Source: Squalus acanthias (lineage: Eukaryota). Taken from it: 64,000 nucleotides of DNA. Under the pieces are notes generated by a model. The model worked only from the letters and a program-made list of their open reading frames with translations. It had not been told where the DNA came from and did not search any database. The stretch covers positions 131,938,001 through 132,002,000 of the forward strand of contig CM059431.1 of the NCBI GenBank assembly GCA_030390025.1, written 5' to 3'. Positions 6,200 to 55,506 of the stretch are shown here, piece by piece (positions within the stretch are counted from its first letter, which is position 1; each line of letters opens with the position of its first letter). The position numbers and the translations under genes were made by a program.

Positions 6200-8420
6200 A
6201 CACCAACATCTGGGGACTTGTGCCAAAATTGGGAGAGCTGTCCCACAGACTAGTCAAGCAACAGCCTGACATAGTCATACTCATAGAATCATACCTTTCA
6301 GCCAATGTCCCGAACTCCTCCAACACCATCCCTGAGTATGTCCTGTCCCACCGGCAGGACAGCCCACCAGGGGTGGCAGCACAGTAGTATACAGTTGGGA
6401 AGGAGTGGCCCTGGGAGGCCTCAACATTGACTCCGGACCCCATGAAGTCTCATGGCTTCAGGTCAAGCAAATCTCCAACTGGTTACCACCTACCGCCCTC
6501 CTTCAGCTGATGAATCAGGACTCCATGTTGAACACCACTTGGAAGAAGCACTGAGAGTAGCAACCACTTGGAAGAAGCACTGAGAGTAGCAAGGGCATAG
6601 AATGTACCCTGGGTGGGGGACTTCAATGTCCATCACCAAGAGTGGCTTGGTAGCACCAATACTGACCGAGCTGGCCGAGTCCTGAAGGACATAGCTGCCA
6701 GTCTGGGCCTGCGACAGGTGGAGAGAGAACCAACACGAGGGCAAAACCTACTTGACCTCGTCCTCACCAATCTACCTGTCGCAGATGCATCTGTCCATGA
6801 CAGTATTGGTAGCAGTGACCACCGCACAGTCATTGTGTAGACGAAGTCCCGTCTTCACACTGAGGACACCCTCCATCGTGTTGTGTGACACTACCACCAT
6901 GCTAAATGGGATAGATTCAGAACAGATCTAGCAGCTCAAAGCTGGGCATCCATGAGGCGCTGTGGGCCATCAGCAGCAGCAGAATTGTATTCCACTGCAA
7001 CTGTAAACTCATGGCCCAGCATATCCCTCACTCTACAATTACCATCAAGCCAGGGGACTAACCCTGGTTCAACAACGAGTGTAGAAGAGCATGCCAGGAG
7101 CAGCACCAGGCGTTCCTAAAAATAAGGTGCCAACCTGGGGAAACTGCATCACAGGACTACATGCATGCTAAAAAGCAGAAGCAGCATGCTATAGACAGGG
7201 CTAAGCGATCCCACAATCAATGGATCAGATCAAAGCTCTGCAGTCCTGCCACATCCAGTCGTGAATGGTGGTGGACCATTAAACAACTAACGGGAGGAGG
7301 AGGCTCCAAGAATATCCCCATCCTCTATGATGGTGGAGCCCAGCACGTGAGTGCAAAAGACAAGGCTGAAGCGTTTGCAACCATCTTCAGCCAGAAGTGT
7401 CGAGTGGATGATCCATATTGGCCTACTCCTGTGGTCACCACCATCACAGAAGCCAATCTTCAGCCAATTCGATTCACTCCATGTGATATCAAGAAACGGC
7501 TGAGCGCACTGGATACAGTAAAGGCTATGGGCCCTGACAACATCCCAACTATCGTGCTGAAGACTTGTGCTGCAGAACTAGCCGCGCCTCTAGCCAAGCT
7601 GTTCCAGTACAGCTACAACACAGGCATCTATCCGACAATGTGGAAAACTGCCCAGGTATGTCCTGTCCACAAAAAGCAGGACAAATCCAATCCAGCCAAT
7701 TACCGGCCCATCAGTCTACTCTCAATCATCAGCAAAGTGATGGAAGGTGTCATCGACAGTGCTATCAAGTGGCACTTACCAATAGCCTGCTCACTGTTGC
7801 CCAGTTTGGGTTCTGCCAAGACCACTCAGCTCCAGAACTCATTATAGCCTTGGTGCAAACATGTACAAAGGAGCTAGGTGTTCTGCGGCGAGTGTCTCAC
7901 CTCCTGACTCCCCAAAGCCTATCCACCATCTACAAGGCACAAGTAAGGAGTGTGATGGAATACTCTCCACTTGCCTGGATGAGTGCAGCTCCAACAACAC
8001 TCAAGAAGCTCGACACCATCCAGGACAAAGCAACCCGCTTGATTGGCACCCCATCCACCACCTTAAACATTCACTCCCTCCACCACCGGCGTACCGTGGT
8101 TGCAGTGTGTACCATCTACAAGATGCACTGCATACCACCTTGAAGGACAAGGGCAGCAGGCGCCTGGGAACACCATCACCTCCAAGTTCCCCTCCAAGTC
8201 ACACACCATCCTGACTTAGAAGTATATCGCTGATCCTTCATCGTCGCTGGGTCAAAATCCTGGAACTCCCTCCCTAACAGCACTGTGGGAGTACCTTCAC
8301 CACACAGACTGCAGCGGTTCAAGAAGGTGGCTCACCACCACCTTCTCAAGGGCAATTAAGGATGGACAATAAATGCTGGCCTTGCTAGCGACGCCCACAT
8401 CCCATAAACGAATAAAAAAG
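6200..8420 (+). mobile_element. CR1-group LINE family B (APE endonuclease + partial RT), internally deleted pseudo-element
   Basis: NIWGLVPKLGEL..PDIVILIESYL, GDFNVHH, LDLVLTN and SDH endonuclease motifs; ANYRPISLLSIISKVME in the RT N-terminus; the RT core is missing at ~7875 (TKEL|GVLRRV). The 3' end aataaatgctggccttgc..gaataaaaaa is shared with 14460, 15140, 24390 and 33090. Confidence 0.9.
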
Positions 8421-9104: not shown

Positions 9105-9545
9105 ATTGTATTGGCTTGCCTCATTGGTAACACTTTTACCTCTGAATCAGAAGTTTGTGAATTCAAGCCTTATTATGACATGAGTTTATGATCTTGGCTG
9201 ACATTTCATTGTATTACTGGGGAGGACTGCACTTTCAAATGTGCCATCTTTTGGATAAGGTGTTAAATCGTGGTTCTGTTTGCCTGCTGAAGTGGATAGG
9301 AGGGATCCCATTTGAAGAAAAGCAGGAATTTCCCCCAATGTCCTGGCCAAACTTCCTCCCTCAACAAACACAACTAAAAACATTATCCTCTTTTCTATTC
9401 ATTAATTTGCTCTTTATGACTTCTTGTTGTGTATTGATTGGCTACCATGTTTGCCTATGTAACAATAACTACATATATAATTTAGTGATTGTAAAACATC
9501 TGGGATACCATTTGGACATGATAAAGTGCTAGATAAATGAAAATA
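9105..9545 (+). mobile_element. tRNA-derived DeuSINE-like SINE (SacSINE1-like), degenerate
   Basis: Reverse-complement homology to 17200-17630; tRNA-like head (ctcattggtaacac..gaattcaagcc). Confidence 0.65.
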
Positions 9546-12412: not shown

Positions 12413-13184
12413 TATGCCCTTTGCAGTAATATACTTGTCTTAACTTGGTGCCCTTTCTCACTCTTGAAACTTTTTCTGCATCTCCTTCCAGCTCTTCACA
12501 GGAGTCAACCCGAATTCACAAGTACTATAAGATATTGTCACACTCCTTGACTCTGGTTCATGCTTGGAAGCTATCTTGCCTGGCCAAAAAAAATCACTGT
12601 TTCTCCATTAACAATCCTCAAAACCTTCCATTTCTGTTATTTATGTACCAGTTGAGTGTTTCATTAGCCTTTTGGGGAATGTGAAGAGAGCATTGGGCAT
12701 TTAACCACTTATTTCAAAATAAAGAAAATATGTCCCTGGATGAATTCTAATAGGGCTAAGAAGAAAGTAGATATGTTTGTAAATTCAATGTTTATATAAA
12801 TCATATATATAATGAATAGAATAATCAATTATTAAAAGGGTATTTATACAATCCCGGAGCCAGATTGGTGGGGAGTAACCACCAATGTATGCTGACAGGT
12901 GCTATTCGCATTCATGCTATTGGGATATTAAGAAACAATTTCTGAGCTGTTTCCAGCAGGAAGCCTCACCCGCTGGCCATGCATATCAAGAAACTGCAGG
13001 CGTTCCAACCACGATTTTCTGATCAGGTGATTTCCTAATATGCGCAGCCGGTGAATAAGGCTCTTTGCCAGTAGCTTAAATTTGGAAAATTACTCCCATT
13101 GTCTCTGTATTATTGACTTTTCAGAAAGGCTGAGTTGTTTGATCAGCCAAGAACTGCCTGGTCAAAAACTCTTGCCATATTAGC

Positions 13185-13560
13185 CATCACAGAATCTATA
13201 GCACAAAAACAGGCCATTCGGCCCAATTGGTCTACGCTAGTGTTTGTACTCCACATGAACCTCCTCTCACTCCAATTACCTTTTCCCACCCTGCCCCTGT
13301 TTCCTCTATTCACCTCCCTCATGCATGTAACAAGCATCCTCTTAAATACAGCAATGCTGTTTGCTTCAACCACTACATGCAGCAATGGCTTTCACATTCT
13401 CACCACTCTCTGGGCAAAGAAATTTCTCCCAAATTCTTTAATTGATCTGTTAGTGGCTATCTTATATTTATGCCCCCTTGTTCTGGACTCACTAACGAGT
13501 GGAAACCATTTCTACACATCCTGCCTTTCAAGCTCCTTCATAATTTTAAAGACTTTAATC
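13185..13560 (-). mobile_element. CR1 3' fragment, degenerate
   Basis: Homologous to 44260-44640; ORF 13143-13385 VVEANSIAVFKRML. Confidence 0.8.
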
Positions 13561-13562
13561 AG

Positions 13563-15190
13563 CTCAGTAGCATAGTGGTTATGTTACTGGACTAGTAATC
13601 CAGTGGCCTAGACTAATGATCCGGAGATGAGAGTTCAAATCCCACCACGGCAGCAGGGGAATTTAAATTCCGTTAATTAAATAAATCTGGAATAAAAAGC
13701 TCGTATCAGTAATGGTGACCATGAAACTGCCGGATTGTCGTAAAAATCCATCTGGTTCACTAATGTCCTTTAGGGAAGGAAATCTGCTCTCCTTACCTAT
13801 GTGACTCCAGACCCACAGCAATGAAGTTGACTCTTAACTGCCCTCTGAAATGGCCTAGCAAGCCATTCAGTTGTACGAAAAACAATATGAGAATTAAATT
13901 ATGAGAATTAGACCACCCGGCATCAACCTAGGCACCGGCTTCAGACCCGACAAAGGCACACCCAGCCCAGTCGACCCAGCAAAGTCCTCTGGGGATTTGT
14001 GCTAAAATTCAGAGAGCTGTCCCACAGACTAGTCAAGCAACAACCTGATATAGTCATACTCATAGAATCATACCTTTCAGCCAACGTCCCAGACCCCTCC
14101 ATCACCATCCAATCAGGATAGACCAAGCAGAGGTGGTGGCACAGTGGTATATAGTCAGGAGGGAGTTGGCCCTGGAAGTTTTCAATATTGACTCACCAAG
14201 GCTTCTTCGGCAGCACCTCCCAAACCCGCGACCTATTCCACCTAGAAGGACAAGGGCAGCAGACGCCTGGGAACACAAGCTCCCCTCCAAGTCACACACC
14301 ATCCTGACTTGGAAGTATATCGCCGTTCCTTCATTGTCGCTGGGTCAAAATCCTGGAACTCCCTCCCTAACAGCACTGTGGGAGTACCTTCACCACACGG
14401 ACTGCGGCGGTTCAAGGCGGCTCACCACCACTTTCTCAAGGGCAATTAGGGATGGGCAATAAATGCTGGCCTTGCCAGTGACGCCCACATCCCAGGAACG
14501 AATAAAAAAAAAATCCCCAGACCCCATGAAGTCTCATGGCTTCAGGTCAATCATGGGCAAGGAAACCTCCATGTTGAACACCACTTGGAAGAAGCACTGA
14601 GGGTAGCAATGACACAGAAAGTACTCTGGGTGGGGAACTTCAATGTCCATTACCAAGAGTGGTTCGGTAGCACCACTACTTACTGAGCTGGCCGAGTCCT
14701 GAAAGACATAGTTGCCAGACTAGGACTGCGGCAGGTGGCGAGAGAACCAACGCGAGGGGGGAAAAAACCGACTTGACTTCATCCTCACCAATCTAGATGA
14801 TGGTGTTGTTGCAGTGACCACCGCACAGTCCTTGTCGAGACGAAATCCTGTGTTCACACTGAGGACACCCTCCCATCTTGTTGTGTAGCACTACCACCGT
14901 GCTAAATGGGATAGATGCAGAACAGATCTAGCAGCTCAAAACTGCACATCCATGAGACACTGTGGGCCATCAGCAGCAGCCTGACTTGGAAATATATCGC
15001 CGTTCCTTTATTGTCGCTGGGTCAAAATCTTGGAATTCCCTATCTGTGGCACTCCCTTCCTAACAGCACCACACTGACTGCAACAGTTCAAGAACACGGC
15101 TCACCACCACCTTCTCAGCAGCAATTAGGGATGGGCAATAAATGCTGGCCTTGCCAGTGATGCCAACATCCCATGATCTAATAAAAAAAA
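13563..15190 (+). mobile_element. LINE family B copy with tRNA-derived 5' head, internal deletion and a nested same-family 3' fragment (~14195-14512)
   Basis: A box TAGCATAGTGG (13568-13578) and B box GTTCAAATCC (13633-13642). The endonuclease start at ~13990 matches 6205 onward. Jump from the endonuclease region to the 3' UTR at ~14980; poly(A)-like end ~15181-15190. Confidence 0.8.
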
Positions 15191-15363
15191 TTTAAAGGGC
15201 GCACACCCAAACTGTCACCACCTGTCTTTTCTCTTTATAGGTACTGACTACATCTATTTTGACTATATGTATATTTTGAGCATTTTCTGACTTATTTCAG
15301 GTTTCTTGCATTTGCAGTTTATCCTTTTCATTTTATTGTACTCATTTTGCTGTTATTAGGAGT

Positions 15364-15581
15364 TTAAAGCTTTTTGGAGTACTTTTCTACATTTTGATTG
15401 TGGAGTTTCTTTTTCTTTAGGGAGCCATTTTTCCCATTTTGTTTTGTTCTCATGTTCCTCCATTTCCCACCATTCCAGTTGCTGTCAACGACAGGTTTAC
15501 TTGCAGCAGCTACATCTATGAGAGTATAAATTCCTTTGGATGCGGTTTTAATTGTACCAATGGGAATGCCCCTGTGTGATG
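15364..15581 (-). CDS. Candidate terminal coding exon of an unidentified host gene (weak)
   Basis: Acceptor ttttattcttttccAG, then 2 nt and 71 open codons (SHRGIPIGTIKTASKGIYTLIDV..KKKKLHNQNVEKYSKKL*), with AATAAA ~27 nt after the stop. No homolog recognised. Confidence 0.25.
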
Positions 15582-15944
15582 CTGGAAAAGAATAAAATTT
15601 GGTTGATAATGCCTAATGTAATGCAAGAATGGTAGTTCACTTATTCCCCATCTTCAACCAAAGCAGCACAGAGTCTTGTGTTAATGGAGTGATGAAGAAA
15701 TAAAACTGGACAGGCTTTAGATCATGCAACTAACAACAAAAAACAGTGGCTCACATCAAGTCATAAAATCTACAAGTGGAATCAAATCTTGTCCTTTAAA
15801 TGTGTGTGAAAAAAAATGAGGATCCCACTTATTAACCAAAATATGTGTTTTGCAGAGCTCCCATTTACCTGCCTGAACCCTGGCTCTCTGAGTGAGGTTG
15901 CTAAATTGGATACCATTTCTAGTTTTGCCAATTTTGTGCACACT

Positions 15945-17199: not shown

Positions 17200-17630
17200 G
17201 AAAGAAAGAAAGATTTGCATTTGTATGGCACCTTTCATAACCACCGGATGTCCCAAAGCGCTTTACAGCCAATGAAGTACTTTTGAAGTGTAGTCACTGT
17301 TGTAATGTAGGAAACGCGGCAGCCAATTTTGCGCAAAGCAAGCTCCCACAAACAGCAATGTGATATGACCAGATAATCTGTTTTTGTTATGTTGATTGAG
17401 GGATAAATATTGGCCAGGACACCGGGGATAACTCCCCTGCTCTTCTTCAAAATAGTGCCATGGGATCTTTTACATCCACCTGAGAGGGCAGACGAGACCT
17501 CGGTTTAACATCTCATCTGAAAGATGGCACCTCCGACAGTGCAGCACTCCCTCAGTACTGCACTGGAGTGTCAGCCTAGATTTTTGTGCTCAAGTCTCTG
17601 GAGTAGGACTTAAACCAACAACCTTCTGAC
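17200..17630 (-). mobile_element. DeuSINE-like SINE (SacSINE1-like), best-preserved copy, nested in an older copy (16520-16730, 17160-17200, 17650-17850)
   Basis: tRNA-like head (B-box-like gtttaagtcc on the minus strand), a conserved central domain repeated in several places, and a (TCTT)n tail. Confidence 0.7.
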
Positions 17631-17852
17631 CAGCAGAATGACACAGCTCTTTTCCAATAGTGCCTTGAGATCTTTTACATCCACCTGAGAGGGCAGACAG
17701 AGCCTCAGTTTAACACCTCCTCTGAGAGACAGCATCTCCAACTAAACTCTCACCCGAGATTATATGCTCAAAACTTCCTCAGTACAGTACTGAAGTGTTA
17801 ACCTAGATTATGTGCACAAGTCTCTTGAAAGGAGCTTGAACAATGAGCTTCT

Positions 17853-18016
17853 GGGAAACATTTTCAACTTGCTGCCTGGGTGTAAAACTGATGTTGTGGA
17901 TCAGCTGCTCGTTATAGAAGCCGTCCGATTTCCACTTCCATTGAATGACATTTCTGTAACGGGCAGCTGGTCTGCAATGGGAGTTTTATACCTGGGTAGC
18001 AAAGTTGAAAATCTAC
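17853..18016. mobile_element. Short fold-back MITE, same family as 15945-16127
   Basis: attttcaacttgctgcctgggtgtaaaact..agttttatacctgggtagcaaagttgaaaat; inserted in a SINE head. Confidence 0.6.
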
Positions 18017-23732: not shown

Positions 23733-24095
23733 TAGTCTCTGTTGTTGTGTAGGCTAACACAGCAGCAAATTTGAGCACAGTGAGGTCCCAGGAGCAACAA
23801 TGAGACAAATGATCTGTTACCTGTTTTGTTGGCATAGTTTGAGGGATGAATATTGGCCAGAACATGGGAAACCCCCCCTGCTTTAATTTGAATAGTACAT
23901 TGGAATCTTTTATGCCCACCTGAACAAGCAAATCGCGTCTCAGTTTAACATTTCATCCGAAAGATGGAACGTCCACCAATGCACCGCTCCCTCAGTACTG
24001 CACTGAAGTGTCAGCCTTGATTATTTGTTCAAGCGGGGCTTGAACCCACAACCTTTTGACTCAGAGGTGACAGTGTTATCACTGAACCAAGCTGA
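23733..24095 (-). mobile_element. DeuSINE-like SINE
   Basis: Homologous to 17290-17630. Confidence 0.7.
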
Positions 24096-24377
24096 TGCTT
24101 GAACCTTTATATCTATATGTATGATTAATATAATAATTTTAAAAGGAGCAGTCTAATTTGGATATTTTTTTGATGTGAAACAAAGAAATCCTTTTCTTAT
24201 AATATGCGGTGCCACATCATGTGCTGTGCTGTATCTAGAATGTTACACAAGTCAACAGTATGGAAGATCTTTGATAGAAATTGCTCTGTTAACAGCTGAA
24301 GTTGTCCCAAAATTCCCACTCCTACTCTCGTGCCCTCAAGATGACTTGGCTCGGAGTCTTACTGTGTCCAAGTAATT

Positions 24378-25195
24378 TTTTTTTATTCGTTCATCGGATC
24401 TGGGCGTTGCTGCCAAAGCCAGCATTTATTGCCCATCCCTAATTGCCATTGAGAAGGGGGTGGTGAGCCGTCTTCTTGAACCGCTGCAGTCTGTGTGGTG
24501 AAGGTACTCCCACAGTGTTGTTAGGGAGGGAGTTCCAGGATTTTGACCCAGCGACGATGAAGGAACGGCGATATACTTCCTTCCAAGTCAGGATAGTGTG
24601 TGACTTGGAGGGGAACTTGGAGGTCGAGGGTTTGGGAGGTGCTGCTGAAGAAACCTTGGCGAGTTGCTGCAGTTCATCTTGTAGATGGTACACACTGCAG
24701 CCACGGTACGCCGGTGGTGGAGGAAGTGAATGTTTAAGGTGGTGGATGGAGTGCCAATCAAGCAGGCTGCTTTGTCCTGGATGATGTCGAGCTTCTTGAG
24801 TGTTGTTGGAGCTGCACTCATCCAGGCAAGTGGAGAGTATTCCATCACACTCCTTACTTGTGCCTTGTAGATGGTGGAAAGGCTTTGGGTAGTCAGGAGG
24901 TGAGACACTCTCCTGCTCTTGTTGCCACAGTATTTATGTGGCTGCTCCAGTTAAGTTTCTGGTCAATGGTGACCCCCAGGATGTTGATGGTGGGGGATTC
25001 AGCAATGGTTATGCCATTGAATGTCAAGGGGCGGTGGTTTGACGCTCACTTGTTGGAGATAGTCATTGCCTGGCACTTGTGTGGCGCGAATGTTACCTGC
25101 CACTTATCAGCCCAAGCCTGAATGTTGTTCAGGTCTTGTTGCATGCGGGCATGGACTGTTTCATTATCTGAGGAGTTGCGAATGGCACTGAATGC
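24378..25195 (-). mobile_element. LINE family B 3' fragment
   Basis: ORFs MQQDLNNIQAWADKWQVTFAPHKC and STIYKAQVRSVMEYSPLAW; same 3' end as 8360-8420. Confidence 0.9.
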
Positions 25196-32799: not shown

Positions 32800-33135
32800 T
32801 GTACATAAGACAAGTTTACTTCAACAGCACCTCCCTCCTCCGCGACCTTTACTACGGACAAGAACAAGAGCAGCAATGTCATGTGAACATCATCAAATCC
32901 AAGTTCCTTCTGAGTCACACACCATCCTGACTTGGACATATAACGCCATTTTCTCATTGTTGCTGGCTTGATATCCTGGAATTCCATACCTAACATCATT
33001 GTCGGTTCACCATCACCACTTGGACTACAGCAGCTGATGGAGAATGGCAACTATCACCTTCTTAGGGTAGCTGGAGCGGGACAATAAATATAGCCTTGCC
33101 AGCATCACCCATATTGCGAGAACAAGTTAAAAAAA
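32800..33135 (+). mobile_element. Degenerate LINE family B 3' end
   Basis: agtcacacaccatcctgacttgga..aataaatatagccttgccagc..aaaaaaaa. Confidence 0.75.
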
Positions 33136-33299
33136 AGGACTCTTAATACATTAGTCCTATATGGTAATCAGGAAAAGGTCTCCTGCATGAGGGTGGCACA
33201 GATATTTCTTGCAACCAGTAGCAGATTGTACTTTGCATCCTTCAGGCTGCTGCTCTATTTGTTGCTTTTCTTGCTCTTAGGGACCTTCCTCCTCCGGGG

Positions 33300-39892: not shown

Positions 39893-40445
39893 AGGGGTCG
39901 GGGGCCAGGATCGGTGGAGGGGGTCGGGGGCCAGGATCGGTGGAGGGGGTCGGGGGCCAGGATCGGTGGAGGGGGTCTGGGGCCAGGATCGGTGGAGGGG
40001 GTCGGGGGCCAGGATCGGTGGAGGGGGTCGGGGGCCAGGATCGGTGGAGGGGGTCGGGGCCAGGATCGGTGGAGGGGGGCGGGGGCCAGGATCGGTGGAG
40101 GGGGTCGGGGCCAGGATCGGTGGAGGGGGTCGGGGGCCAGGATCGTCCGAGGGGGTCGGGGGCCAGGATCGGTGGAGGGGGTTGGGGCCAGGATCGGTGG
40201 AGGGGGTCGGGGGCCAGGATCGGTGGAGGGGGTTGGGGCCAGGATCGGTGGAGGGGGTTGGGGCCAGGATCGGTGGAGGGGGTCGGGGCCAGGATCAGTG
40301 GAGGGGGTTGGGGCCAGGATCGGTGGAGGGGGTTGGGGCCAGGATCGGTGGAGGGGGTTGGGGCCAGGATCGGTGGAGGGGGTCGGGGGCCAGGATCGGT
40401 GGAGGGGGTCGGGGGCCAGGATCGGTGGAGGGGGTCGGGGGCTAG
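39893..40445. repeat. G-rich minisatellite, 25-26-bp unit GGGGCCAGGATCGGTGGAGGGGGTCG, ~21 copies, inside a family C-like MITE remnant starting ~39693
   Basis: CCAGG recurs at 39905, 39931, 39957 and onward; flank ccagccagattgagag is shared with 62345-62360. Confidence 0.95.
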
Positions 40446-42210
40446 GTTCATCGGAGTGGGTCCCCAACACGTGCACAAACAAGCAGATGAGGTGATCAAG
40501 TGCTGCCTTGTATGAAACAAATGCAGTCTTATCATTAGAAAATGTTGGTGAATTTCAGCACTCAGCAGGCGAAGTGTAATTTATTGCTAATAATTTTAAT
40601 CCACACCTTGCACTTTTTTGCTTGTATCCGACACAGTAAATCACTGCAGATTATCATAGCTATATCCAACTAAATATTGGGAAGACCGAAGCCATTGTCT
40701 TCGGTCCCCGTCACAAACTCCATTCCCTAGCCATCGACTCCATCCCTCTCCCTAGCATCTGTCTGAGGATGAACCAGACTGTTCGCAACCTTGGTATCAT
40801 ATTTATGCTGAAATGAGCTTCTGACCACATATACATGCCATAACTAAGACCGTCTATTTCCACCTCTATAACGGCACCCGATTCCGCCTCTGCCTCAACT
40901 CATCTGCTGCTGAAACCCTCATCAGAGTGGTCTGCACAGAGTGATCTTAAACAGAGTGCTTCTAAACAGAGTGTTAAAGTTGGGAATTTGGAGAGAGGGT
41001 GAATTTGGAGCAGGGTGGAAGAAGGTGCTGCTTTTTGCCTCCAAAAAAAGGACTGCTTTGTGTTACAGGTAAATATTTAACTTAAACTAAACGATATGCT
41101 AAATTAATTAAATACATAAACTTTAATTTCCTAAATAAATAAAACATGATTATATAGGGATGACAGTGCAGGTGGTGTGCCGCAACTGCAGCATGTGGGA
41201 GTTTGTGGAGAGCATCACGATCCCGGACGACCACGTTTGCAGTAAGTGTCTGCATCTCGAGGAACTTCAGCTCAGAGTTGTTGAGCTGGAGTCCGAAGTG
41301 CAGACATTGCGGGGCATCAGGGAGGGGGAGAGTTATCTGCACACTTTGATCCAGGAGGCAGTCACACCCCTTAGCTTAGGTAGTGGTACAGGTCTGGTTA
41401 GTGGTCAGGGACAGGAGGGTGTGACTGCAACTCAGGCAGGTAAGAGGAACCCAGGTACAGTGCTGAGGAGCGTTGACCTTTGCCCTTATCTAACAGGTAT
41501 GAGGTTCTTGCAGTCTGTGTGGATGAGGGAAAAGTCTGCAGGGTGGATGAGCAAACTGGCCGTGGCACAGGTGGCCATTCAAGTGGAGGGAGTGAAAAGG
41601 AATGTTGTAGTGGTAGGGGACAGTATAGTCAAGGGGATAGGTTCTCTGCAGCCGCAACCGGGAGTTCCGAAGGCTGTGTTGCCTGCCCGGTGCCAGGGTT
41701 AAGGATATCATCTCGCAGCTGGAACAGAATTTGGAGTGGGAGGGGGAGGATCCAGTTGTCGTGGTCCACATAGGAAGGAACGACATAGGTAGAACTCGGA
41801 ATGAGGTTCTGCTGAGAGAGTTTGAGGAGCTAAGGTCCAAATTAAAAAGCAGAACGTCACAGGTAATAATTTCTGGATTGTTACCTGAGCCATGTGCAAA
41901 TTGGCATAGGGACACGCAGATCAGAGAGTTAAATGCGTGGCTCAAAGAGTGGTGTGGGAGGAAGGGGTTTCAATTCATGGGGCACTGGCACCAGTACTGG
42001 GGAAAGAAGGAGCTGTTCCGTTAATACGGTCTTCACTTAAACCAGGCTGGGATATCGAATAACTAGGGTTGTAGATAAGGCTTTAAACTGAAAAGTCGGG
42101 GGGAGGGGTCAGATGAGGGGAAATTTAGAAATCTAAAGAGAAAAGTCAAGGCAATGGAGCAGTGTAGCAATTTGGGTAAAGATAAGCAGAGTGTGACAGG
42201 AAGGAACAGA

Positions 42211-44257: not shown

Positions 44258-45475
44258 CCTTTACATAGGATATATGGCACAGAAACAGGCCATTCGGCCC
44301 AACCAGTCCATGCCGGCATTTATGCTCCACTCGAGCCTCCTCCCATCTTTCCTTATCTAAATCTATCAGCATAACCCTCTATTCCCTTCTCCCTCATATG
44401 CTTATCTAGCCTCCCCTCAAATACATCTATACTATTCGTTTCAACCACTCCCTGTGGTAGCGAGTTCCACATTCTCACCACTCTTTGGGTAAAGAAGTTT
44501 CTTCTGAATTCCCTATTGGATTTCTTGGTGATTATCTTATATTGATGGCCTCTAGTTTTGCTCTTCCCCACAAGTGGAAACATTCTCTCTGTATCCACTC
44601 TATCAAAACCTTTCATAATTTTAAAGACCTCTATTAGGTCACCTTTTTTCAAGAGAAAAGAGACCCAGCCTGTTCATCCTTTCCTGATATGTATACCCTC
44701 GCATTTCTGGTATCCTTGTAAATCTTCTCTTCACCCTCTCCAGTGCCTCTATATTCTCTTTATAATATGGCAACCAGAACTGTACGCAGTGGTCTAACCA
44801 AGGTTTGATACAGGTTTAGCATAACTTCCCTACTTTCCAATTCTATACCTCTAGAAATAAACGCTAGTGCTTGGTTTGCTTTTTTTATGGCCTTGCTAAC
44901 CTGTGTTGCAACTTTTAGTGATTTCTGTATTTGCACTTTGAGATCCCTTTGTTCCTCTATCCCACCTAGAGTCGCACCCTCCAAGTAATAAGTGACCTCC
45001 CTATTCTTCCTACCAAAATATAATACCTTACATTTACCTGTGTTGAACTTCATTTGCCAATTATATGCCCATTCTGCAAGTTTATTAATGTCCTCCTGTA
45101 ATTTGTTGTAGTCCTCCTCAGTATTGACTATACCCCCCAATTTGGTGTCATCCGCAAATTTAGAATTTGTGTTTTTGATTCCAAAGTCTAAATCATTATT
45201 ATAAATTGTGAACAACAGTGGTCCCAGCACTGATCCTTGTGGAACACCACTACCCACTGTGAATAGCTACCGTTTACCCCTACTCACTGCTTTCTGTCTT
45301 GAAGCCAGCTAGCTACCATTCTGCTACTTGTCCCCTGACTCCGCATTCTCTGACCTTGTTCATCAGTCTATTATGGGGTACCTTGTCGAAGGCCTTTTGA
45401 AAATCTAGATAAATTACATCTACTGTATTACCATTGTCTTCTCTCCCTGTTACCTCTTCAAAAAATTCAATTAGT
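44258..45475 (-). mobile_element. Antisense CR1 3' fragment nested in the 40924-46259 CR1
   Basis: ORFs 44760-45257 (GVPQGSVLGP, FADD) and 44353-44652; 3' UTR at 44260-44330. Confidence 0.9.
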
Positions 45476-47414
45476 TTGATAGGAAAATAGAAAATAGAAT
45501 ATTTTTTAAATGGTGAAAAACTATTAAATGTTGGTGTTCAAAGAGATTTAGATTTCCTGTGTTACAGGAAACACAAAGTTACCAAACAGATACAGCAAGC
45601 AATTAGGAAGGTAAATGGCATGTTGGCCTTTATTGCAAAGGGATTGGAGTACAAGTGTAAAGAAGTCTTACTACAATTGTAGAGGACTTTGGTGAGACTA
45701 CACCTGTGCACAGATTTGGTCTCCTTATCTGAGAAAGGACATACATGCCTTAGAGGCGGTGCAACGAAGGTTCACTAGATTGATCCCTGGGATGAGAGGG
45801 CTGTCCTATGATGTGAAATTGTGTAGAATAGGCCCATACTCTCTGAAGTTTAGAAGAGTGAGAGGTGATCTCATTGAAACGTATAAGATTCTGAGGGGGA
45901 TTGACAGGTAAGATGCTGAGAGGTTGTTTCCCCTGGCTCGAGAGTCTGGAACTAGGGCGCATAGTCTCAGGATAAGGGGTCAGCCATTTAAGACTGAGAT
46001 GAGGAGGAATTTCTTCACGCAGTAGGTTGTGAATCTTTGGAATTCTCTACCCCAAAGGGCTTTGGATGCTGAGTCGTTGAGTATATTCAAGGCTGCGATA
46101 GATATATTTTTGGACTCTAGGGGAATCAAGGGATATGGGGATCGGACGGGAAAGTGGAGTTAAGGTCAAAGATCAGCCATGATCTTATTGAATGACAGAG
46201 CAGGCTCGAAGGGCCGTATAGCCTACTCTTGCACCTACCCCTTATGTTCTTAAGTTCTTATCCATGCCTTTGTTACCTCTAGACTTGACTATTCCAACGC
46301 ACCCCTGGCTGGCCTCCCACGTTCTACCCTATGTAAACTTGCTACCTATCCAAAACTCTGCTACCCTTGTCCTAACTCACACCTAGTCCTGTTCACCCAT
46401 CACCCCTGTGCTCGCTGATCTACATTGGCTTCCAATTAAGCATCGTCTCGATTTTAAAATTCTCACCCTTGTTTTCAAATCCCTCCATGGCCTCGCCCCT
46501 CCCTATCTCTGTAATCTCCTCCTGCCCCACAACCACCGAGATATCTGCGCTTCTCTAATTCTGGCCTCTTGAGCATCTCTGATTTTAATCGCTCAACCAT
46601 TGATGCCCTTGGCTTCAGCTGCCTAGCTGCCTAGGCCCTAAGCTCTGGAATTCCCTTCCTAAACCTCTCCGCCTCTTTACCTCTCTTTCCTCCTTTAAGA
46701 CACGCCTTAAAACCTACTTCCCTAATTTCTCCTTATGTGGCTCGGTGTCAAATTTTGTTGTATAATGCTCCTGTGAAGTGTCTTGGGACGTTTTACTACG
46801 TTAAAGCTGCTATATAAAGACAAGTTGTGTTGTTGTGATTATTGATTGAGCCAGAAGAAGGCTATGCTATAGATCTGGCTGTATCCTTTCTGAACAGACA
46901 AAATCTGGGTTTCTGAATTGACAGCTAACTATTGCTTTGAGAATGACAGCCACTTGAAACCTGTTAAATTCAATACCCGTGAAAGAAAAGGTCATTTCCT
47001 TGCCATCTCTGACTCTCTCAAAAAATGGTGTAGATATTAACCCTGCCCCTCCCCCCATCCTACGACAGGCCGGAGTGGGTCTGGGGGGGTGGTTAAAAAT
47101 TCAAAATAGCGAAACGCGATCCCAACCAGCCACGTACAGCCTGCCGCCATTTTTACAGCGGCTGGTTGCATGGCATGTCTGTGTCCCACTCTCGAGAGGC
47201 GGGCACCTCATTATAATATTTAAATCAGGCTCCCACCGTGCAGTTGGGAGCCTAATTTAAATTTAACACTGGCTGGCTGGCTTACCCAGGGATCGGAAAA
47301 CCCAGCAGCGAATGGAGATAGGAGCAGCTGGATCAAGCAAGTAAATGCTTTTTATTGCACTGCTTGTGAGCCAGGAGGAGCCTCTCCTCGCTGCCGCGAT
47401 CGGCCGATCCCCAT

Positions 47415-48005
47415 CATGTCCCAATCTTTGCCTCCCTCTCTTCTGATTACCGCCCTCCGACACCCCATCATGCCCCAATCTTTGCCTCCCTCTCTTCCGA
47501 TTACCGCCCTCCGACTCCCCCACCATGCCCCAATCTTTGCCTCCCTCTCTTCCGATTACTGCCCTCTGACTCCCCCACCACCATGCCCCAATCTTTGCCT
47601 CCCTCTCTTCCGATTACTTGCCTCCGACTCCCCCATCATGCCCCAATCTTTGCCTCCCTCTCTTCCGATTACCGCCCTCCGACTCCCCCACCATGCCCCA
47701 ATCTTTGCCTCCCTCTCTTCCGATTACTTCCCTCCGACTCCCCCACCATCATGCCCCAATCTTTGCCTCCCTCTCTTCCGATTACTTCCCTCCGACTCCC
47801 CCACCATGCCCCAATCTTTGCCTCCCTCACTTCCAATTACTGCCCTCCGACTCCTCCCACCCTCCCACCATGCCCCAATCTTTGCTTCCCTCTCTTCCAA
47901 TTACTGCCCTCCACACACCCCCCCACCATGCCCCAATCTTTGCCTCCCTCTCATCCAATTACTGCCCTCCACACCCCCCACCCTCCCACCATGCCCCAAT
48001 CTTTA
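47415..48005. repeat. C-rich minisatellite, ~55-bp unit (54-64), ~11 copies, inside a family C-like MITE (~47028-48282)
   Basis: ATGCCCCAATCTTTGCCTCCCTCTCTTCCGATTAC recurs at ~47416, 47470, 47525, 47583, 47638, 47693 and onward. Confidence 0.95.
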
Positions 48006-48959
48006 ACTCCCTCCCGAATACAGCCCTATGACAATTTTTTTTGGCCCGTTGCACAGTTTTGCACATGTGTGAAATTTAACATTGGAACAGCCAGTCCCGG
48101 GCTGTGCGAGGCCACGCTGACCAAGCTGTCAATCTGGCCAGCTGCCGGGCAGAAAATAGAATTAAAAAATGATAAAGGGGTCCTGCTGTTAAATTCGGCA
48201 GGACTTCCAGTTCTCGGGATTTCCAGCTTTCCTGACCGTAAACACACCTTCCCTCCCTGCCTCCCCATAAAAATTTGGGCCAATATGTCTGGAAGGAACT
48301 TCCCAACAAAAGGTCATTATCCAAAACATTTAATCCTTTTGGTAATTTCCTTTACTACATGGAACTTTATCTCTGCATGTCATCCTGAACAATTTGACAG
48401 CTTCAGATAGCTGGTCATGAATTCTTGCTTCCAAAGCTCACTGTTTACCATTTTATTCTGATTTTTTTTGCCTGTGCTCTCAACTGATTCTCATTAACAC
48501 TGGGCACAAATAAATTTGGACTTGCTTTCATAAGCTGAGATACAGATTGCTCTTTCAGTGAATCTACAATTTATTTTTAATGCACTGAACTTATTTTGAT
48601 ATAAAGAAAATCCTTTATAATAAAATCCTTTATAAGAAACAAGAAAAATGTATTTTGATCTATCAAGCCTGACCATTTTTCATAATTCAACCCCACCTAC
48701 TCATATTCTCAACATGGAGTAAAACTTTCTCTGTGCATTGTGTACAACAAAATTGTAAGCCCATTTATAAGGAACCAGTTTAGAATTTCATAACATATAG
48801 CACATAGGCTACCTTCCTATATCCCTCATTCTTTTCTCTGGAAAAGCAACAAGTTGTACTGTTCCTTTCAATTGCCTTCTCTAGTAACTTGTTTGACAAC
48901 TCTATTACCCTTTGAGTCAAAAAGTTATATCTGATATCCCTTTTTAGTCCAAATTTATG

Positions 48960-49185
48960 CCCTTTAAATAAGACATTAAATTGAGGCCTCTCTGCGCAGG
49001 TGAATTTTAAAGATCCCATGCTACTATTCAAAGATCAGAGACTTCTCGATGTCTTGGTCAACATTTGTCCCTCAACCAACAACATATTAACTAAGCATTC
49101 ATATCAGAGCTGTTTGTCATATGCACCAAATGACTGCCCATTTATCTACATCATAATAGTCACCACTTCAAAGTAATTCACTGTC
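48960..49185 (+). mobile_element. Degenerate DeuSINE-like SINE; its tail resumes at ~49765
   Basis: aaagatcccatgctactatt..cacttcaaagtaattca, homologous to the reverse complement of 17270-17520. Confidence 0.6.
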
Positions 49186-49765
49186 TGTTGTACAGGGCCT
49201 TGGTGAGACCACACCTTGAGTACGGTGTGCAGTTTTGGTCGCCTTATCTGAGGAAGGATGTTCTTGCCATGGAAGGAGTTCAGCGAAGATTCACAAGGCT
49301 GATACCTGGGGTGGCAGGAATGACATATGAGGAGAGATTGGGTCGATTGGGCTTATACTCACTGGAGTATAAGAATGAGAGGGGATCTCATCGAAACATA
49401 TAAAATTCTGACAGGTCTGGACAAACTAGATGCAGGAAGAATGTTCCCGATGGTCGGAGAGTCCAGAACCAGGGGTCATAATCTACGGAACGGGTAAACC
49501 ATTTAGGACAGAAATGAGGAAGAATTTCTTCACCCAGAGAGTGGTGAACCTGTGGAATTCTCTACCACAGAAGGTAGTTGAGGCGAAGTCATTAAATATA
49601 TTCAAGGATGAGTTAGATATATTTCTTAAAGCTAAAGGTATCAAGGGATATGGGGAGAAGGCAGGTACAGGGTACTGAGTTTAGATGATCAGCCATGATC
49701 TCATCGAATGGCGGAGCAGGCTCGAGGGGCCGAATGGCCTACTCCTGCTCCTATCTTCTGTGTAT
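49186..49765 (+). mobile_element. CR1 3' fragment
   Basis: [29 protein letters not shown]; 3' UTR as at 12050-12125. Confidence 0.95.
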
Positions 49766-50839: not shown

Positions 50840-52759
50840 GCAGTATATATGAAAATTCAATAGAAAAGGGAAGAGTGCCAGAGGACTGGTGGACAGCTAA
50901 TGTTATTCCTATATTAAAAAAGGGAGATAGAACAAATCCAGGGAACTATAGATCAGTTAGATTAACGTTGGTGGTAGGAAAGATATTGAAATCTTTACTC
51001 AATGATATAATAGAAAAACATCTAGAAACCGAAAATATAATAAAGAATAGTCAGCATGGATTCCAAAAGGGAAGGTCATGCTTGACCAAACGTACTGAAT
51101 TCTTTGAAGAAGTAACAGAAAGAGTAGACAAGGGTAATGTAGTGGATGTGATATACATGGACTTTCAAAATGCCTTCGATAAGGTACTACATAGTAGACT
51201 CATGACTAAGGTCAGAGCACTTGGAATCAGGGGACAAGTAGTAGAATGGGTAGCAAGCTGGCTACAAGACAGAGAGTAGGGATTAAAGGTAGTTACTCAG
51301 ACTGGCAGAAGGCAGGAAGTGGTGTTCTTCAGGGATCGGTGCTTGGACCACTGTTCACTATTTACATAAATGATTTGGACTCAGGAATCGTAAGTACAAT
51401 ATCAAAATTTGCAGATGACAGTAAATTGGGGATATCGTTACTAGCGTGGAGGACTGCGACAAAATACAAGATGTTAATAAATTTGCAGAATGGGCATGTA
51501 AATTGCAAATGAATTTTAATATAGATATGTGTAAGTGCAGCATTTTGGTAGGAGGAATATGGAGGCCACCTACCCCTTGGAAAATAAGAGTCTAAATGGG
51601 GTAGAGGCGCAAAGGGATCCAGGGGAACGAATACACAAATCATTAAAAGTAGCAATGCAGGTTAAGAAAGCCATAGAAAGTACAAACAAAGCACTGGGGT
51701 TCATTTCTAGAGGAATAGAATTCAAAAGCAGAGACGTTATGTTAAACGTATAGGGGGGAGAAATTCCCCTCGAGCCCCGTTTGGTGCGCTAAATCAGAAA
51801 AGCAGGAAAAGTTAGCGCCAGGCGCTAACCTCTTCCAGCCTCTCTGAAATTCCCATGTTTTGCTTCAAGAGGGAAGTGGGGCGCCAAATCAAGCACTCCA
51901 CTTCCTTCTTAGAGCGCAAGAGGGGGGGAAGTTTGTCACCCGGGGCGTGGCGCTGCAGCGTTGCAGGGGCTCTTCCCTGAATTAAAGGGAAGGGCCCCAC
52001 GCTGCAAACTCTGCAGTTTAAAAAAAACTTACCTGGACCACTGGGGAGCGGAGGTGCCGCACGATCAGCCCGGCGACTCAAGCAGAGTGCCGGGCTGACC
52101 GATTGTGGCACGGACTCCGCGTCCGGAGGCGCAAAAAAAAGTTTTGAAAAATCCGACTTTTTTCCAGGGCGTCCGGCCACCTCACCTTTAACTCCGGCTC
52201 CACTAGCGGCCGGCAGCCCTGCTCGCGTCCCCTGTAGCAGTCACTGCAATCGCCCGGCGCTGCTGCAGGGGGCGAAGGGGAATTTTTGTGCTGAGGCGCT
52301 CCCGGGGCGATGCGCCCGGAGATGACGTCACGATCTCCAGGCGCATGAGATCGGGGCGCATACCGGTAGGAGCACAACCTGCTATCGCTGCCACTAACCT
52401 CCCACGGAATTTGGCGGGAGGCACGGTCAGCGAAAAGGCCTTTGCGCTCCCCATGGGAGGCGCAAAGGAGGGGAATTTCTCTCCCCTAGAATCTTGGTTA
52501 GACCAGAGTTCTGGCATCCATATTACAAAAAGGTTATAGAAGCATTGGCAAAAGTACAAGAAAGATTTACAAGGATGATACCAGAACAAAGAGGATACAA
52601 CTATCAGGAAAGACTGAACAAGCTGGGGCTCTAGAAAAGAGAAGACTGAGAATTGACCTGATTGAGGTCTTTAAAATTATGAAGGTGTTCAACAGGGTAG
52701 ACGTAGAGAAGATGTTTCCACCTGTGGGGAGTCCAAAACTAGGGGCCACAAATATAAGA
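50840..52759 (+). mobile_element. Decayed CR1 RT fragment, split by a MITE and truncated by a duplicated segment
   Basis: PEDWWTANV, SQHGFQKGRSC, DFQNAFD and FADD. Confidence 0.9.
51754..52486. mobile_element. Harbinger-type MITE (family A, inverted)
   Basis: TIR GGGGGAGAAATTCCCCTC / GAGGGGAATTTCTCTCCCC, TSD TAG (51751-51753, 52487-52489). Confidence 0.85.
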
Positions 52760-53445
52760 AGGCCTGAGGGGGTGATCAGAGGCCTCGTGGGGGAATCTCT
52801 GATCTCAGGGGGTGGGTTAGGTAGGGACCCTGGATCCAGGAGGTATGTATCTCCTGGCACTTACCTCCTGGATCCAGCATTCCCCGCCTTGTTGTAACTG
52901 CCGGGTTTTATGAATTGTGCAAAACCCATCCACATGCAGTTAAAAACAAAATGGAGATTAAAAAAGAGGCTTCCAGCCTCATTATAATATTTAAATTGAC
53001 GTCCCCCTCCTGGGAGCAGCTTGGCTGCCCGCCCCGTCCCGCCTCCGTTAAAATCGGAAGTGGGCAAGTTGGAGGTGGGTTCAGGTTGGGAATCCCATTT
53101 TTAACAATTTAACTACCCCCACGCCCCCAACCCATCCATTTTTATAGGTTAAAATTCCCTGTCTGACTTAATATGCATTGTTAACTCGCTATAATGTTTC
53201 TGTTGTTGCCACTTTGTATGTACTTCCTTTATGGCGTTAAGCATTTTACAATATTGCCTGAGGGTCCAGGTGCTGCAGAAAAGGCTCTATTTGGATTATG
53301 TACAGCACCAGACAAGTTCATATGCAGGTTCATGGCTTTGTTTTTAGCAGCCGTACGTTCCCCAGTGAGGACTTTCCTTGTCTGTACTGGCAGGCTAAGT
53401 GGATCAATCTGCTGGTGACTAGAAAAATTGACCATCTGCACTCCT
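52757..53445 (+). repeat. ~690-bp direct duplicate of 62639-63327
   Basis: About 97% identity by manual comparison; covers half a MITE plus ~285 bp of flank. Confidence 0.95.
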
Positions 53446-55506
53446 GATATTTTTCATTCATAATTTTAAAAATTGTTTTTTTTTAATTTATTTTGGTGAA
53501 AAGTTAAAAATAATTTATTATTATTCTCAACAGCAACTTTGAGCACAGGCAGATTGTAATACTGGGTGTAAATGTGTAATCTGGGTAATAAATATTAACA
53601 CAACAGGAATTTACAACTCAAATCATTGGTTTGCCAGCAATGACCCGTACAGTGGCTGAGTGAGGACAATTGGTGGAATTCCAGAATCTCCTATTTGGAA
53701 TAGCCAAAGTGATTTATTTCAATCAAGTGAAAAGTACTATCATGTTGGGGTTTGATAGGGAGTGAGAACATCAGTCCTTCTAAATGGCAGTGCCTGCTAA
53801 TTATGGAAAGTCTTCCAGAGTGTTGATTACAGGAGCTGTGCTGAGAAGTGAGAAAAAGACTTTTGATTTGTGTTCAAACAAAGAAAATATTCATTTTATC
53901 AACCATTCACTTCAATCCAATCAAATGAACAATACCCATCCCACAAAGCTCATTGAAGACATGCTGTGCTCGTAACTGTTTCTCAGACCCCTTTTATATT
54001 ATTGAATCATTTCCAGTAGAAGTGGTTCTATAATTGAGTTGGTTTCCATTGTGCTGAATCTGTGCTGCTTAGAGTGGATTTAGCAAAACCAAGAGTGCAC
54101 AGAATCTTTTGTGCGTGCATAATTGCTTTAAAATCGTGTTCCCGACTTTGTCACTCTGGCAATGTCAAAAGTGAATTTCTGGCCTGTACAGGCCACAAAC
54201 CACCAATGGCCAGAGCTCAGATACAGACCTGATGTGAGTGATGCCACCAGCAGTCATGGTAAGATCTCTCAATGAGATTTCAGTGCTGCCATTGGCACTG
54301 CATCATTTACACCATGGGGCCACTTCTGGCAATCATCAAAAGTGCTCTGTTGTGTACATGAGCCAGTGCCGATCAAGGATTTTCCAAATTATCACACACC
54401 GTTTCAATGCATACAAAATCATGGGCACCAAGGCCATAATTTGTAATCTATGTTGGTGGCAGGTTATGTGCTTTGCTGCAGGCAAGGACTTGGAAAATCT
54501 ACCCTTAAAAGTAGAGGGTATCAATTGAAGGGATAATTACTTGTCCTAGCCCTTTCGGACTACCCCAGATCAGGTGTATTCCCCAGACGTTTACCCTCAA
54601 CTAAAGTTAGCGGTAGCCGGATCCCATAAGACGCTTAATTGGGTCTAAAGGTCAGACTACCTCTCCCTAAAGGAAAGAAACGGTCTAAAGATGTTACCGT
54701 ACTCCAGATAGTACTTTTAATAAGTTTAACTAGACTGTAACCTTCCTTATATTATAAGGGTCCGGAATACCCCCCAGAATTCTGCAACTCCTTTGAGTGT
54801 ACAGAAATTGAGTTCGCAAGATGATACAGAAATGCTCTTTGAGACTATTCTAAAAATATATAGATTTATTACCGAACCGACATTCAGTTTAACATTATGG
54901 CAATCGCAACTTTAATCGTTCAAAATACAAATAGCTTACATTATCTTATTCTCAGAGATCCTTATTCTCAAATCTTAACTTTGTTAAATTTCCACATTTC
55001 TACTTATTTCTTAATCCAGAATATCCACCAAATCAAATAAGAGTACTTTGATCCCCGAGACTCAAAAGTTAAAAACTTACAGAGAATGTCTGTTAAGTTG
55101 AGAAACGCTTGCCTTCTCAGCGACTTCTGACTTTTCTGTCTGAAAAGCTCTATTTTTATACTCTTCTTTGGTGGCTTATTCTTTGAAGTTTTCGTGTTTG
55201 TGTAAGCTTAATTGCATTAAGTCATTCTTTGCTGACTTTGTTCTATTCTTTATTGTCATTTCAGCTGTCAGCTTTTAGACTTGTGTCCTGTTTAGGTGTT
55301 TCCAAAACCATCATAAACACAATGACAGCAATGGTTTCTGTTTGATGCAATTCTTATCGAAGTCTTTCTATTGAATTTCTAATACTACTTTAACTGGTTA
55401 TTAGACGTTGTGACTCCGTGGTATTACATATAGAACATAGAACAGTACAGCACAGTACAGGCCCTTCGGCCCTCGATGTTGTGCCGAGCATTGTCCGAGA
55501 CCAAGA

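What the first reader, a model, noticed from the sequence alone, without database searches (positions are those of the whole stretch)
13563..14170. tRNA(Thr)-derived Pol III head running directly into a LINE endonuclease: a candidate ORF1-less, tRNA-headed LINE
Seen: A box (13568-13578), an anticodon-like arm CTGGA-CTAGTAA-TCCAG (13587-13603, anticodon AGT) and B box (13633-13642). About 350 bp of SINE-like body follows, then the APE endonuclease N-terminus (~13990, matching NIWGLVPKLGEL at 6205) with no poly(A) tail or TSD in between and no room for an ORF1. Known: CR1-group LINEs normally have a Pol II 5' UTR and an ORF1, while tRNA heads define SINEs. Inference: family B may be an autonomous retroelement with a SINE-type promoter, or a SINE/LINE pair sharing both ends. 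This is the most architecturally unusual element here. I cannot tell whether it is already catalogued.
Basis: partly seen in the sequence, partly recalled or inferred. Interest (0 to 1): 0.7.

Follow-up and report, generated by a model that had tools for sequence, protein, structure and literature searches.

The report
Shark LINE with tRNA-type start
This is a broken copy of an abundant shark jumping gene that codes for its own copying enzymes yet begins with the tRNA-like promoter piece normally found only on small non-coding repeats, so it may be read by a polymerase that is not thought to make protein-coding RNA.

Summary
Confirmed, and a family trait, not a chance join. The stretch is the 5' end of a decayed elasmobranch Zenon LINE (CR1 group). 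All 7 of 7 shark and ray Zenon consensus sequences published in PMC13343379 begin with this same A-box/arm/B-box head, body and leader; the 3 hagfish and coelacanth ones do not (first 400 letters, by eye). The window matches SquAca_Zenon-1 at about 92% over 232 nt. Lack of ORF1 is already known for Zenon; the tRNA head is not mentioned in that paper's text or in my nine literature searches. Contigs from four species show a shared sharp 5' end and head-to-tail deletion forms, that is, ready-made SINEs. Coding-strand TTTT is rare (1 in 4,371 bp against 26 in 10,084 bp of neighbouring CR1), but some T-poor relatives are equally low. The conserved AUG before the endonuclease is out of frame with it. 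Best model: Pol III transcription with non-standard translation (about 0.5, not shown). This scan reported the same family at ten other places in this genome; one note gave me the paper.

The parts
13188..13566 (-). Older CR1 LINE 3' fragment that abuts the element's 5' end (host sequence, not part of the element)
   Evidence: 70% match to 44264-44641 and other CR1 pieces, ending at 13566
13567..13653 (+). tRNA-derived head; first ~7 nt of the family consensus missing
   Evidence: Rfam tRNA 19.3 bits, sub-threshold; shared sharp 5' end at 13567 in contigs of two runs; start of 7 of 7 published elasmobranch Zenon consensus sequences
13568..13578 (+). A box
   Evidence: canonical in 7 of 7 consensus sequences (by eye)
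13587..13603 (+). Anticodon-like arm, loop with AGT
   Evidence: perfect hairpin, extended to 9 bp in the fold; unique in the window
13608..13624 (+). Second hairpin in the variable loop, a duplicate-like copy of the anticodon arm; damaged in this copy
   Evidence: two both-side changes between SquAca and CarCar/ScyCan consensus keep the pairing (by eye, not tested statistically)
13633..13641 (+). B box
   Evidence: canonical in 6 of 7 consensus sequences, one letter short in HypSab
13654..13875 (+). Conserved non-coding body, shared by the LINE and its short head-to-tail forms; not the Deu domain
   Evidence: Deu motif hits 17455, 17660 and 49009 but not here
13876..13910 (+). A-rich linker; diverged and partly duplicated in this copy, with the family's conserved AUG lost
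   Evidence: by-eye comparison with SquAca_Zenon-1; poor cover by contigs
13911..13989 (+). Leader: Arg-rich peptide in the endonuclease frame, overlapped by a short AUG-started frame in the consensus
   Evidence: multi-copy in 4 of 4 runs; translations; HypSab consensus
13990..14194 (+). APE endonuclease, N-terminal part (12-nt and 20-nt deletions against the sister copy)
14191..14513 (+). Nested 5'-truncated 3' fragment of the same Zenon family with poly(A); 4-nt microhomology at its 5' joint
   Evidence: 89-90% to 8132-8419 and 24376-24619; junctions
14516..14980 (+). Endonuclease resumes, to the start of the linker domain
   Evidence: 83% to 6563-6980
14974..15190 (+). 3' end with poly(A), joined after an internal loss of about 2 kb (all of RT)
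   Evidence: 78-82% to the other tails; junction
6205..8419 (+). Sister copy: 5'-truncated at the endonuclease start, internal deletion in RT, poly(A) tail
24373..24933 (-). Sister copy: 3' fragment only
   Evidence: 90% to 7887-8419

Best explanation
A decayed, nearly 5'-complete copy of the elasmobranch Zenon LINE, a ~3.3-kb single-ORF (endonuclease + RT), poly(A)-tailed CR1-group retrotransposon whose master elements carry a tRNA-derived head as their true 5' end (shown; about 0.97). Most likely working (inferred; about 0.5): the A and B boxes recruit TFIIIC and RNA polymerase III starts at the first base of the head, as in a SINE; the coding strand is kept nearly free of TTTT so the polymerase can run to the tail; the uncapped RNA is translated by a non-standard route, since the only conserved AUG before the endonuclease is out of frame with it (non-AUG start or a -1 shift from the short AUG frame), probably helped by the conserved body; the protein then copies its RNA by target-primed reverse transcription at the 3' tail (family knowledge). 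Internal deletions give head-body-tail forms that are SINEs at birth. The head was probably gained in or near the elasmobranch lineage, because hagfish and coelacanth Zenons lack it. The confidence given is for the whole statement including Pol III.
For: 7 of 7 elasmobranch Zenon consensus sequences (5 species, 2,870-3,314 nt) start with the head; 0 of 3 hagfish/coelacanth ones do. Window against SquAca_Zenon-1: 18 differences in 232 nt, no gaps, counted by eye. The 5' end falls 7-10 nt before the A box, where a tRNA-type transcript begins; contigs with unrelated flanks end at 13567 (1,010 in X9, 38 in X16). In X6, 510 contigs leave the body at 13875 into letters that match the published linker. 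Joints 13875 to 14414 and 14439 occur in 4 of 4 runs. A box canonical in 7 of 7, B box in 6 of 7. TTTT on the coding strand: 1 in 4,371 bp against 6.5 expected from base composition (Poisson P 0.011) and 26 in 10,084 bp of neighbouring CR1; median 7.7 per kb in 68 related elements, only 2 of 68 as low. No TTTT in the first 400 nt of 7 of 7 headed consensus sequences, present in 3 of 3 headless ones (by eye). AUG conserved in 6 of 7 consensus sequences; out of frame with the endonuclease in HypSab, the one where both are visible, and the window's frames agree; the sister copy's endonuclease has no Met.
Against: No transcript, start site, cap or polymerase data. TTTT scarcity is not significant against dinucleotide-keeping shuffles (P 0.11), and among the 5 relatives with a similar T share 2 have no TTTT and 1 has 0.62 per kb. 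The seven headed consensus sequences are close kin, so they count as about one event. No contig listed bridges body and leader with 31 letters on each side (this copy's linker is diverged). The head and body fold no better than shuffles (z 0.21 and 0.31). The ray consensus has an imperfect B box. Kojima 2018 (PMC5786205) treats LINEs and their bipartite forms as Pol II-transcribed and says SINEs cannot encode protein. The reading-frame point rests on majority consensus sequences of old copies, seen for 400 letters only.
Confidence: 0.5

Rival explanations
1. The head is a passenger: a SINE 5' part was fused once to a Zenon LINE by template switching, and the LINE is made by RNA polymerase II from an internal promoter in the head or body, as is assumed for other LINEs. 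Pol III would serve only the short forms.
For: LINEs and bipartite forms are regarded as Pol II-transcribed (PMC5786205); headless Zenons exist and the lepidopteran Zenon derivative Persaeus has no Pol III promoter (PMC6740152); T-run scarcity also occurs in some T-poor relatives; capped RNA is easier to translate.
Against: It needs a Pol II start that coincides with the first base of a tRNA; A and B boxes are kept in the LINE consensus across sharks and a ray; it does not explain the out-of-frame AUG or the T-run scarcity against local CR1.
Confidence: 0.33
2. The tRNA-like head is an RNA processing or protection signal: the element is co-transcribed from host promoters and an RNase P-like cut at the head makes the exact 5' end, as HDV-like ribozymes do for R2, RTE and Ingi.
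For: Exact 5' end; hairpins with paired changes between lineages; precedent of self-cleaving 5' ends in six LINE clades (PMC5786205).
Against: The acceptor stem is poorly paired in the Rfam alignment; the best-kept features are the two promoter boxes; no need for T-run avoidance.
Confidence: 0.1
3. The published consensus sequences are chimeras: automatic extension walked from the LINE into an abundant SINE that shares part of its sequence, and true LINE masters have another 5' end.
For: Consensus sequences were extended by MCHelper with an extra round at 5' ends (PMC13343379 methods); head and body are more deeply covered than the leader.
Against: Five genomes gave the same collinear result; the window copy is a real molecule with head, body, linker, leader and endonuclease in that order; 510 contigs in X6 run from body into linker.
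Confidence: 0.04
4. A one-off juxtaposition of a SINE and a LINE fragment at this locus.
For: The locus is full of nested insertions and the sister copy at 6205 has no head.
Against: Same junction in 7 of 7 consensus sequences; the sister copy is simply 5'-truncated.
Confidence: 0.01

Closest known systems
Elasmobranch Zenon LINEs: SquAca_Zenon-1/2/3, CarCar_, ScyCan_, RhiTyp_, HypSab_Zenon-1 (Stuart et al. 2026, PMC13343379)
   Same: Same family: head, body and leader collinear, about 92% to SquAca_Zenon-1 over 232 nt; no ORF1; poly(A) tail.
   Different: The paper's main text never mentions tRNA or polymerase III (0 hits each). This copy is decayed, interrupted and lacks RT.
Zenon and its short internally deleted element Persaeus in Lepidoptera (PMC6740152)
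   Same: Single-ORF Zenon that spawns 5'+3' deletion forms.
   Different: Persaeus has no tRNA homology and no Pol III promoter; here the deletion forms inherit a tRNA head.
SINEs built from a tRNA head plus the 5' and 3' parts of a LINE: Bov-tA/Bov-A/Bov-B, SINE2-1_ACar/Vingi-2_ACar, SINE2_Gav (Kojima 2018, PMC5786205)
   Same: Short element shares both an inner 5' part and the tail with its LINE.
   Different: There the head is added to the non-coding derivative only; here the coding LINE itself carries it, and the clade is Zenon, not RTE or Vingi.
SacSINE1 / LmeSINE1 (DeuSINEs of sharks and coelacanth; PMC5499810, PMC3747384)
   Same: tRNA-derived head, shark genomes.
   Different: Deu body and an L2/CR1-4_DR-like tail; the Deu motif is absent from this element and marks a separate repeat at about 17200-17630.
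R2 elements (PMC5786205 for co-transcription and ribozyme; their cap-independent, AUG-poor translation is recalled)
   Same: Protein-coding LINE whose RNA is not a normal capped Pol II product.
   Different: R2 is co-transcribed with rRNA and cuts itself out; no tRNA head.

Membership tests
Elasmobranch Zenon LINE | High nucleotide identity to the published consensus | tested here: met
   214 of 232 nt identical to SquAca_Zenon-1, collinear through body and leader; by eye, first 400 letters only
Elasmobranch Zenon LINE | No ORF1 | tested here: met
   423 nt from 5' end to endonuclease, no long frame; only a short AUG frame of about 46 codons in the consensus
Elasmobranch Zenon LINE | Poly(A) tail | tested here: met
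   A runs at 14504-14513, 15183-15190 and the sister's end
Elasmobranch Zenon LINE | APE endonuclease followed by RT in one ORF | tested here: met
   endonuclease; RT start in the sister copy, weak Pfam RVT_1 E 0.013, with full EN-RT relatives at 38-42%; RT lost from the 13567 copy
Elasmobranch Zenon LINE | RT groups in the Zenon clade on a tree | not tested
   No tree built; placement taken from PMC13343379 through nucleotide identity. Only 26% identical to the window's canonical CR1
tRNA-derived SINE (SINE2) | tRNA-derived head with A and B boxes | tested here: met
tRNA-derived SINE (SINE2) | Short and non-coding | tested here: not met
   runs into endonuclease; consensus 2.9-3.3 kb. Met only by the head-to-tail forms seen as joints
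tRNA-derived SINE (SINE2) | Transcribed by RNA polymerase III | not testable with these tools
   only indirect signs (boxes, 5' end, T-run scarcity)
DeuSINE (SacSINE1) | Deu central domain | tested here: not met
   16-nt Deu motif from PMC7245038 Fig. S4 has 3 hits in the window at up to 3 mismatches, none in 13567-13990
V-SINE (HE1) with HER1 | V central domain and HER1 tail | not tested
   no V-domain sequence was available from a call
Functional tRNA-Thr gene | Cloverleaf passing tRNA detectors | tested here: not met
   ARAGORN 0; Rfam below cut-off

The most novel reading that the evidence does not exclude
Elasmobranch Zenon is an autonomous, protein-coding LINE transcribed as a 3.3-kb uncapped RNA by polymerase III from a captured tRNA head, with its reading frame purged of T-run terminators and translated without an in-frame AUG; its SINEs arise by simple internal deletion, so LINE and SINE share one promoter and one tail.
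Probability: 0.45. Interest if true: 0.85.

Novelty: new variant of a known kind. Interest (0 to 1): 0.6.

Why it matters
The working division is that LINEs are Pol II-made and code for protein while tRNA heads and Pol III belong to non-coding SINEs. A successful vertebrate LINE family (hundreds to thousands of long copies per genome in the paper's Table S3) with a fixed tRNA head breaks the structural half of that rule now and makes the transcriptional half directly testable. If Pol III does make it, it is a natural case of a long uncapped Pol III RNA being translated, and it gives a second route to SINE birth: deletion of an already headed LINE rather than adding a head to a LINE remnant.

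Tried and rejected
No whole genome is held, so copies could not be counted or aligned genome-wide. First guess that the head is SacSINE1/Deu: rejected. Short body motifs are not in the hagfish UCON3/Meta/Deu alignments (the three hits in file 2 lie in unrelated sequences) or in any paper's main text. DNA pattern scans for the body in viral contigs and for the leader-endonuclease joint in metagenome contigs: 0 hits. Protein search with the leader-endonuclease peptide: 2 candidates, none significant, weak evidence. Sequencing runs: no RNA holder listed; X16 is only guessed to be RNA, so it says nothing on expression. Depth is not copy number and was not used as such. My first A+B box pattern (whole-window scan, upstream scan) missed the known head, so those blanks are void; the corrected pattern finds the head and finds 0 of 25 upstream regions of distant metagenome relatives with such boxes, and ARAGORN finds 0 tRNAs in 28 loci but also misses the shark head. 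These relatives are 23-42% identical to the query and not shown to be Zenon. No target-site duplication and no continuation of the host CR1 after 15190 were found. RNA folding gave no unusual stability. The paper's top ORF lengths (324-747 aa) cannot separate decay from a missing start codon, so they were not used. A search for R2 translation papers returned nothing usable in the 10 listed. Look-ups of earlier scan notes by sequence and by nearby place were blank.

Full report
Setting. The window is shark DNA: the family's protein has 72-84% matches inside gene models of Heptranchias, Pristiophorus and Heterodontus and 56% in Mobula, and full-length endonuclease-RT relatives at 38-42% in amphioxus and unnamed contigs. 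No whole genome is held.

Observation. The box pair occurs once in the window, with 0.01-0.065 expected by chance. It is a degenerate tRNA: none by ARAGORN, Rfam 19.3 bits against a cut-off of 29, with an extra 22 nt in the variable loop. The endonuclease begins at 13990 and matches the sister copy at 6209. No poly(A) and no T4 run lie between.

Anatomy of the copy. It abuts an older CR1 fragment ending at 13566. Order: head 13567-13653, body to 13875, A-rich linker to 13910, leader to 13989, endonuclease to 14194, a nested 3' fragment of the same family with poly(A) at 14191-14513, endonuclease again 14516-14980, then a jump to the 3' end, 14974-15190. About 2 kb with the whole RT is missing. 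The copy is dead; the question is what its master looked like.

Is the join a family trait? Head, body, leader and endonuclease are all covered by very many contigs in 4 of 4 runs. Contigs with unrelated flanks end at 13567 (1,010 in X9, 38 in X16). Joints from 13875 to 14414 and 14439, and nearby ones, occur in 4 of 4 runs: head and body joined straight to the family tail. In X6, 510 contigs leave at 13875 into other letters. No listed contig bridged body and leader by 31 letters on each side, because this copy's linker is diverged, so alone was not decisive.

The decisive test came from a paper named in an earlier scan note. Supplementary Table 2 of PMC13343379 lists 10 vertebrate Zenon consensus sequences; only the first 400 letters of each can be seen. 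All 7 elasmobranch ones (CarCar, HypSab, RhiTyp, ScyCan, SquAca-1, -2, -3; 2,870-3,314 nt) begin with this head and body and go on through the linker into the leader; HypSab and SquAca-3 are visible as far as the endonuclease start. The 2 hagfish and 1 coelacanth ones show no such head. By eye the window differs from SquAca_Zenon-1 at 18 of 232 positions from 13567, then shows deletions of 12 and 11 nt and a diverged linker. The X6 loose-end letters match the published linker.

What is known. That paper states that Zenon elements lack ORF1 and have a poly(A) tail, that elasmobranch Zenons group with crustacean elements, and that they had not been submitted to a repeat repository; its main text has 0 hits for tRNA and for polymerase III. 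So ORF1 loss is ordinary and the head is unremarked there. Nine literature searches listed no title describing a tRNA-headed LINE; the library lacks most subscription papers, and Repbase, Dfam and SINEBase could not be queried. The body is not the Deu domain of SacSINE1.

Signs bearing on mechanism. (a) The 5' end lies 7-10 nt before the A box; the A box is canonical in 7 of 7 and the B box in 6 of 7 consensus sequences. (b) TTTT on the coding strand: 1 in 4,371 bp over three family pieces (a fourth, 69%-alike piece at 32811-33136 was left out), against 26 in 10,084 bp over 7 of 9 listed CR1 pieces (2 skipped for unassigned strand); the single run at 14179 is not in the sister copy. Expected from base composition 6.5, P 0.011; against dinucleotide shuffles P 0.11. 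In 68 of 81 fetched loci with at least 1,200 matched bases, the median is 7.7 per kb and 2 of 68 are as low; but of the 5 with a similar T share, 2 have none and 1 has 0.62 per kb. Suggestive, not decisive. (c) A second hairpin in the variable loop keeps its pairing through two both-side changes between SquAca and CarCar/ScyCan (by eye; absent in HypSab; two lineages, no statistics). (d) An AUG after the linker is kept in 6 of 7 consensus sequences. In HypSab, read by eye, it is out of frame with the endonuclease and opens a short frame that, by the sister copy's sequence, stops about 17 codons into it; the window's frames show the same offset. The endonuclease frame upstream is Arg-rich and has no AUG, and the sister's endonuclease has no Met, whereas invertebrate relatives start with Met just before the domain. 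This rests on consensus sequences of old copies and needs young copies. (e) 0 of 25 distant relatives have A+B boxes upstream.

Model. Shown: a Zenon LINE family with a fixed tRNA-derived 5' end, and short forms sharing both ends. Inferred: Pol III starts at the head and reads a T-run-poor 3.3-kb unit; the uncapped RNA is translated by a non-AUG start or a frameshift; deletion forms are SINEs at once. I give this about 0.5. Rivals: passenger head on a Pol II LINE (0.33), the view implied by Kojima 2018; head as a processing signal (0.10); chimeric consensus (0.04); local chance (0.01). The direction of events (SINE head captured by the LINE, or SINEs shed from a headed LINE) is not settled; headless Zenons in hagfish and coelacanth suggest the head was gained.

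Papers as seen. PMC13343379: abstract, 12 of 19 found passages, sections 32 and 43, rows of Tables S2 (cut at 400 letters) and S3. PMC5499810: parts 1-3 of 6; supplement not available. PMC5786205, PMC6740152, PMC11481361, PMC4824008, PMC3747384, bioRxiv 10.1101/443036: found passages only (the preprint's supplement was not seen and may bear on how whale-shark Zenon was annotated). PMC7245038: passages and supplement passages. Recalled without a call: TFIIIC/A-B box mechanics, T-run termination, target-primed reverse transcription, RNase P specificity, R2 translation.

Earlier scan notes. Ten notes on other places of this genome describe the same family and the Pol III idea. They are not independent support; the paper lead was theirs and I checked it. 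Verdict: real, family-wide, a new variant of a known kind; interest 0.6.

Noticed in passing
window 55507-58802 (-): Near-intact canonical CR1: a 1,005-codon open EN-RT frame with a GDSL esterase ORF1 upstream; a young element that serves as a local contrast (12 TTTT in 3 kb).
   Followed up: partly
window about 17200-17630 (-): A Deu-domain SINE, probably SacSINE1-like (exact Deu motif at 17455-17470), with related pieces at 17646-17853, 9191-9387, 23733-24060 and 48968-49188.
   Followed up: partly
window 15195-15620 and 12830-13160 (-): Two coding-looking stretches with scattered stops flank the CR1+Zenon insertion on the minus strand; possibly one broken gene or element split by the insertions. 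No Pfam match.
   Followed up: partly
window 52757-53448 and 62639-63330: A 693-bp repeat pair at 97% identity, much younger than most repeats in the window.
   Followed up: no
window 39894-40446 and 47409-48013: GC-skewed tandem arrays with 26-bp and 55-bp units, next to members of a dispersed repeat.
   Followed up: no
window 6534-6592: Exact 29-bp tandem duplication inside the sister Zenon copy's endonuclease.
   Followed up: no
proteins P0001, P0009, P0030, P0052, P0060, P0061: Several shark and ray gene models include pieces of this LINE as exons, probably annotation artefacts or exonisation.
   Followed up: no
L045 and L057: Two metagenome non-LTR elements with no TTTT in 1.8 and 1.35 kb of coding strand; the matches do not reach the endonuclease start, so a head was not looked for.
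   Followed up: no
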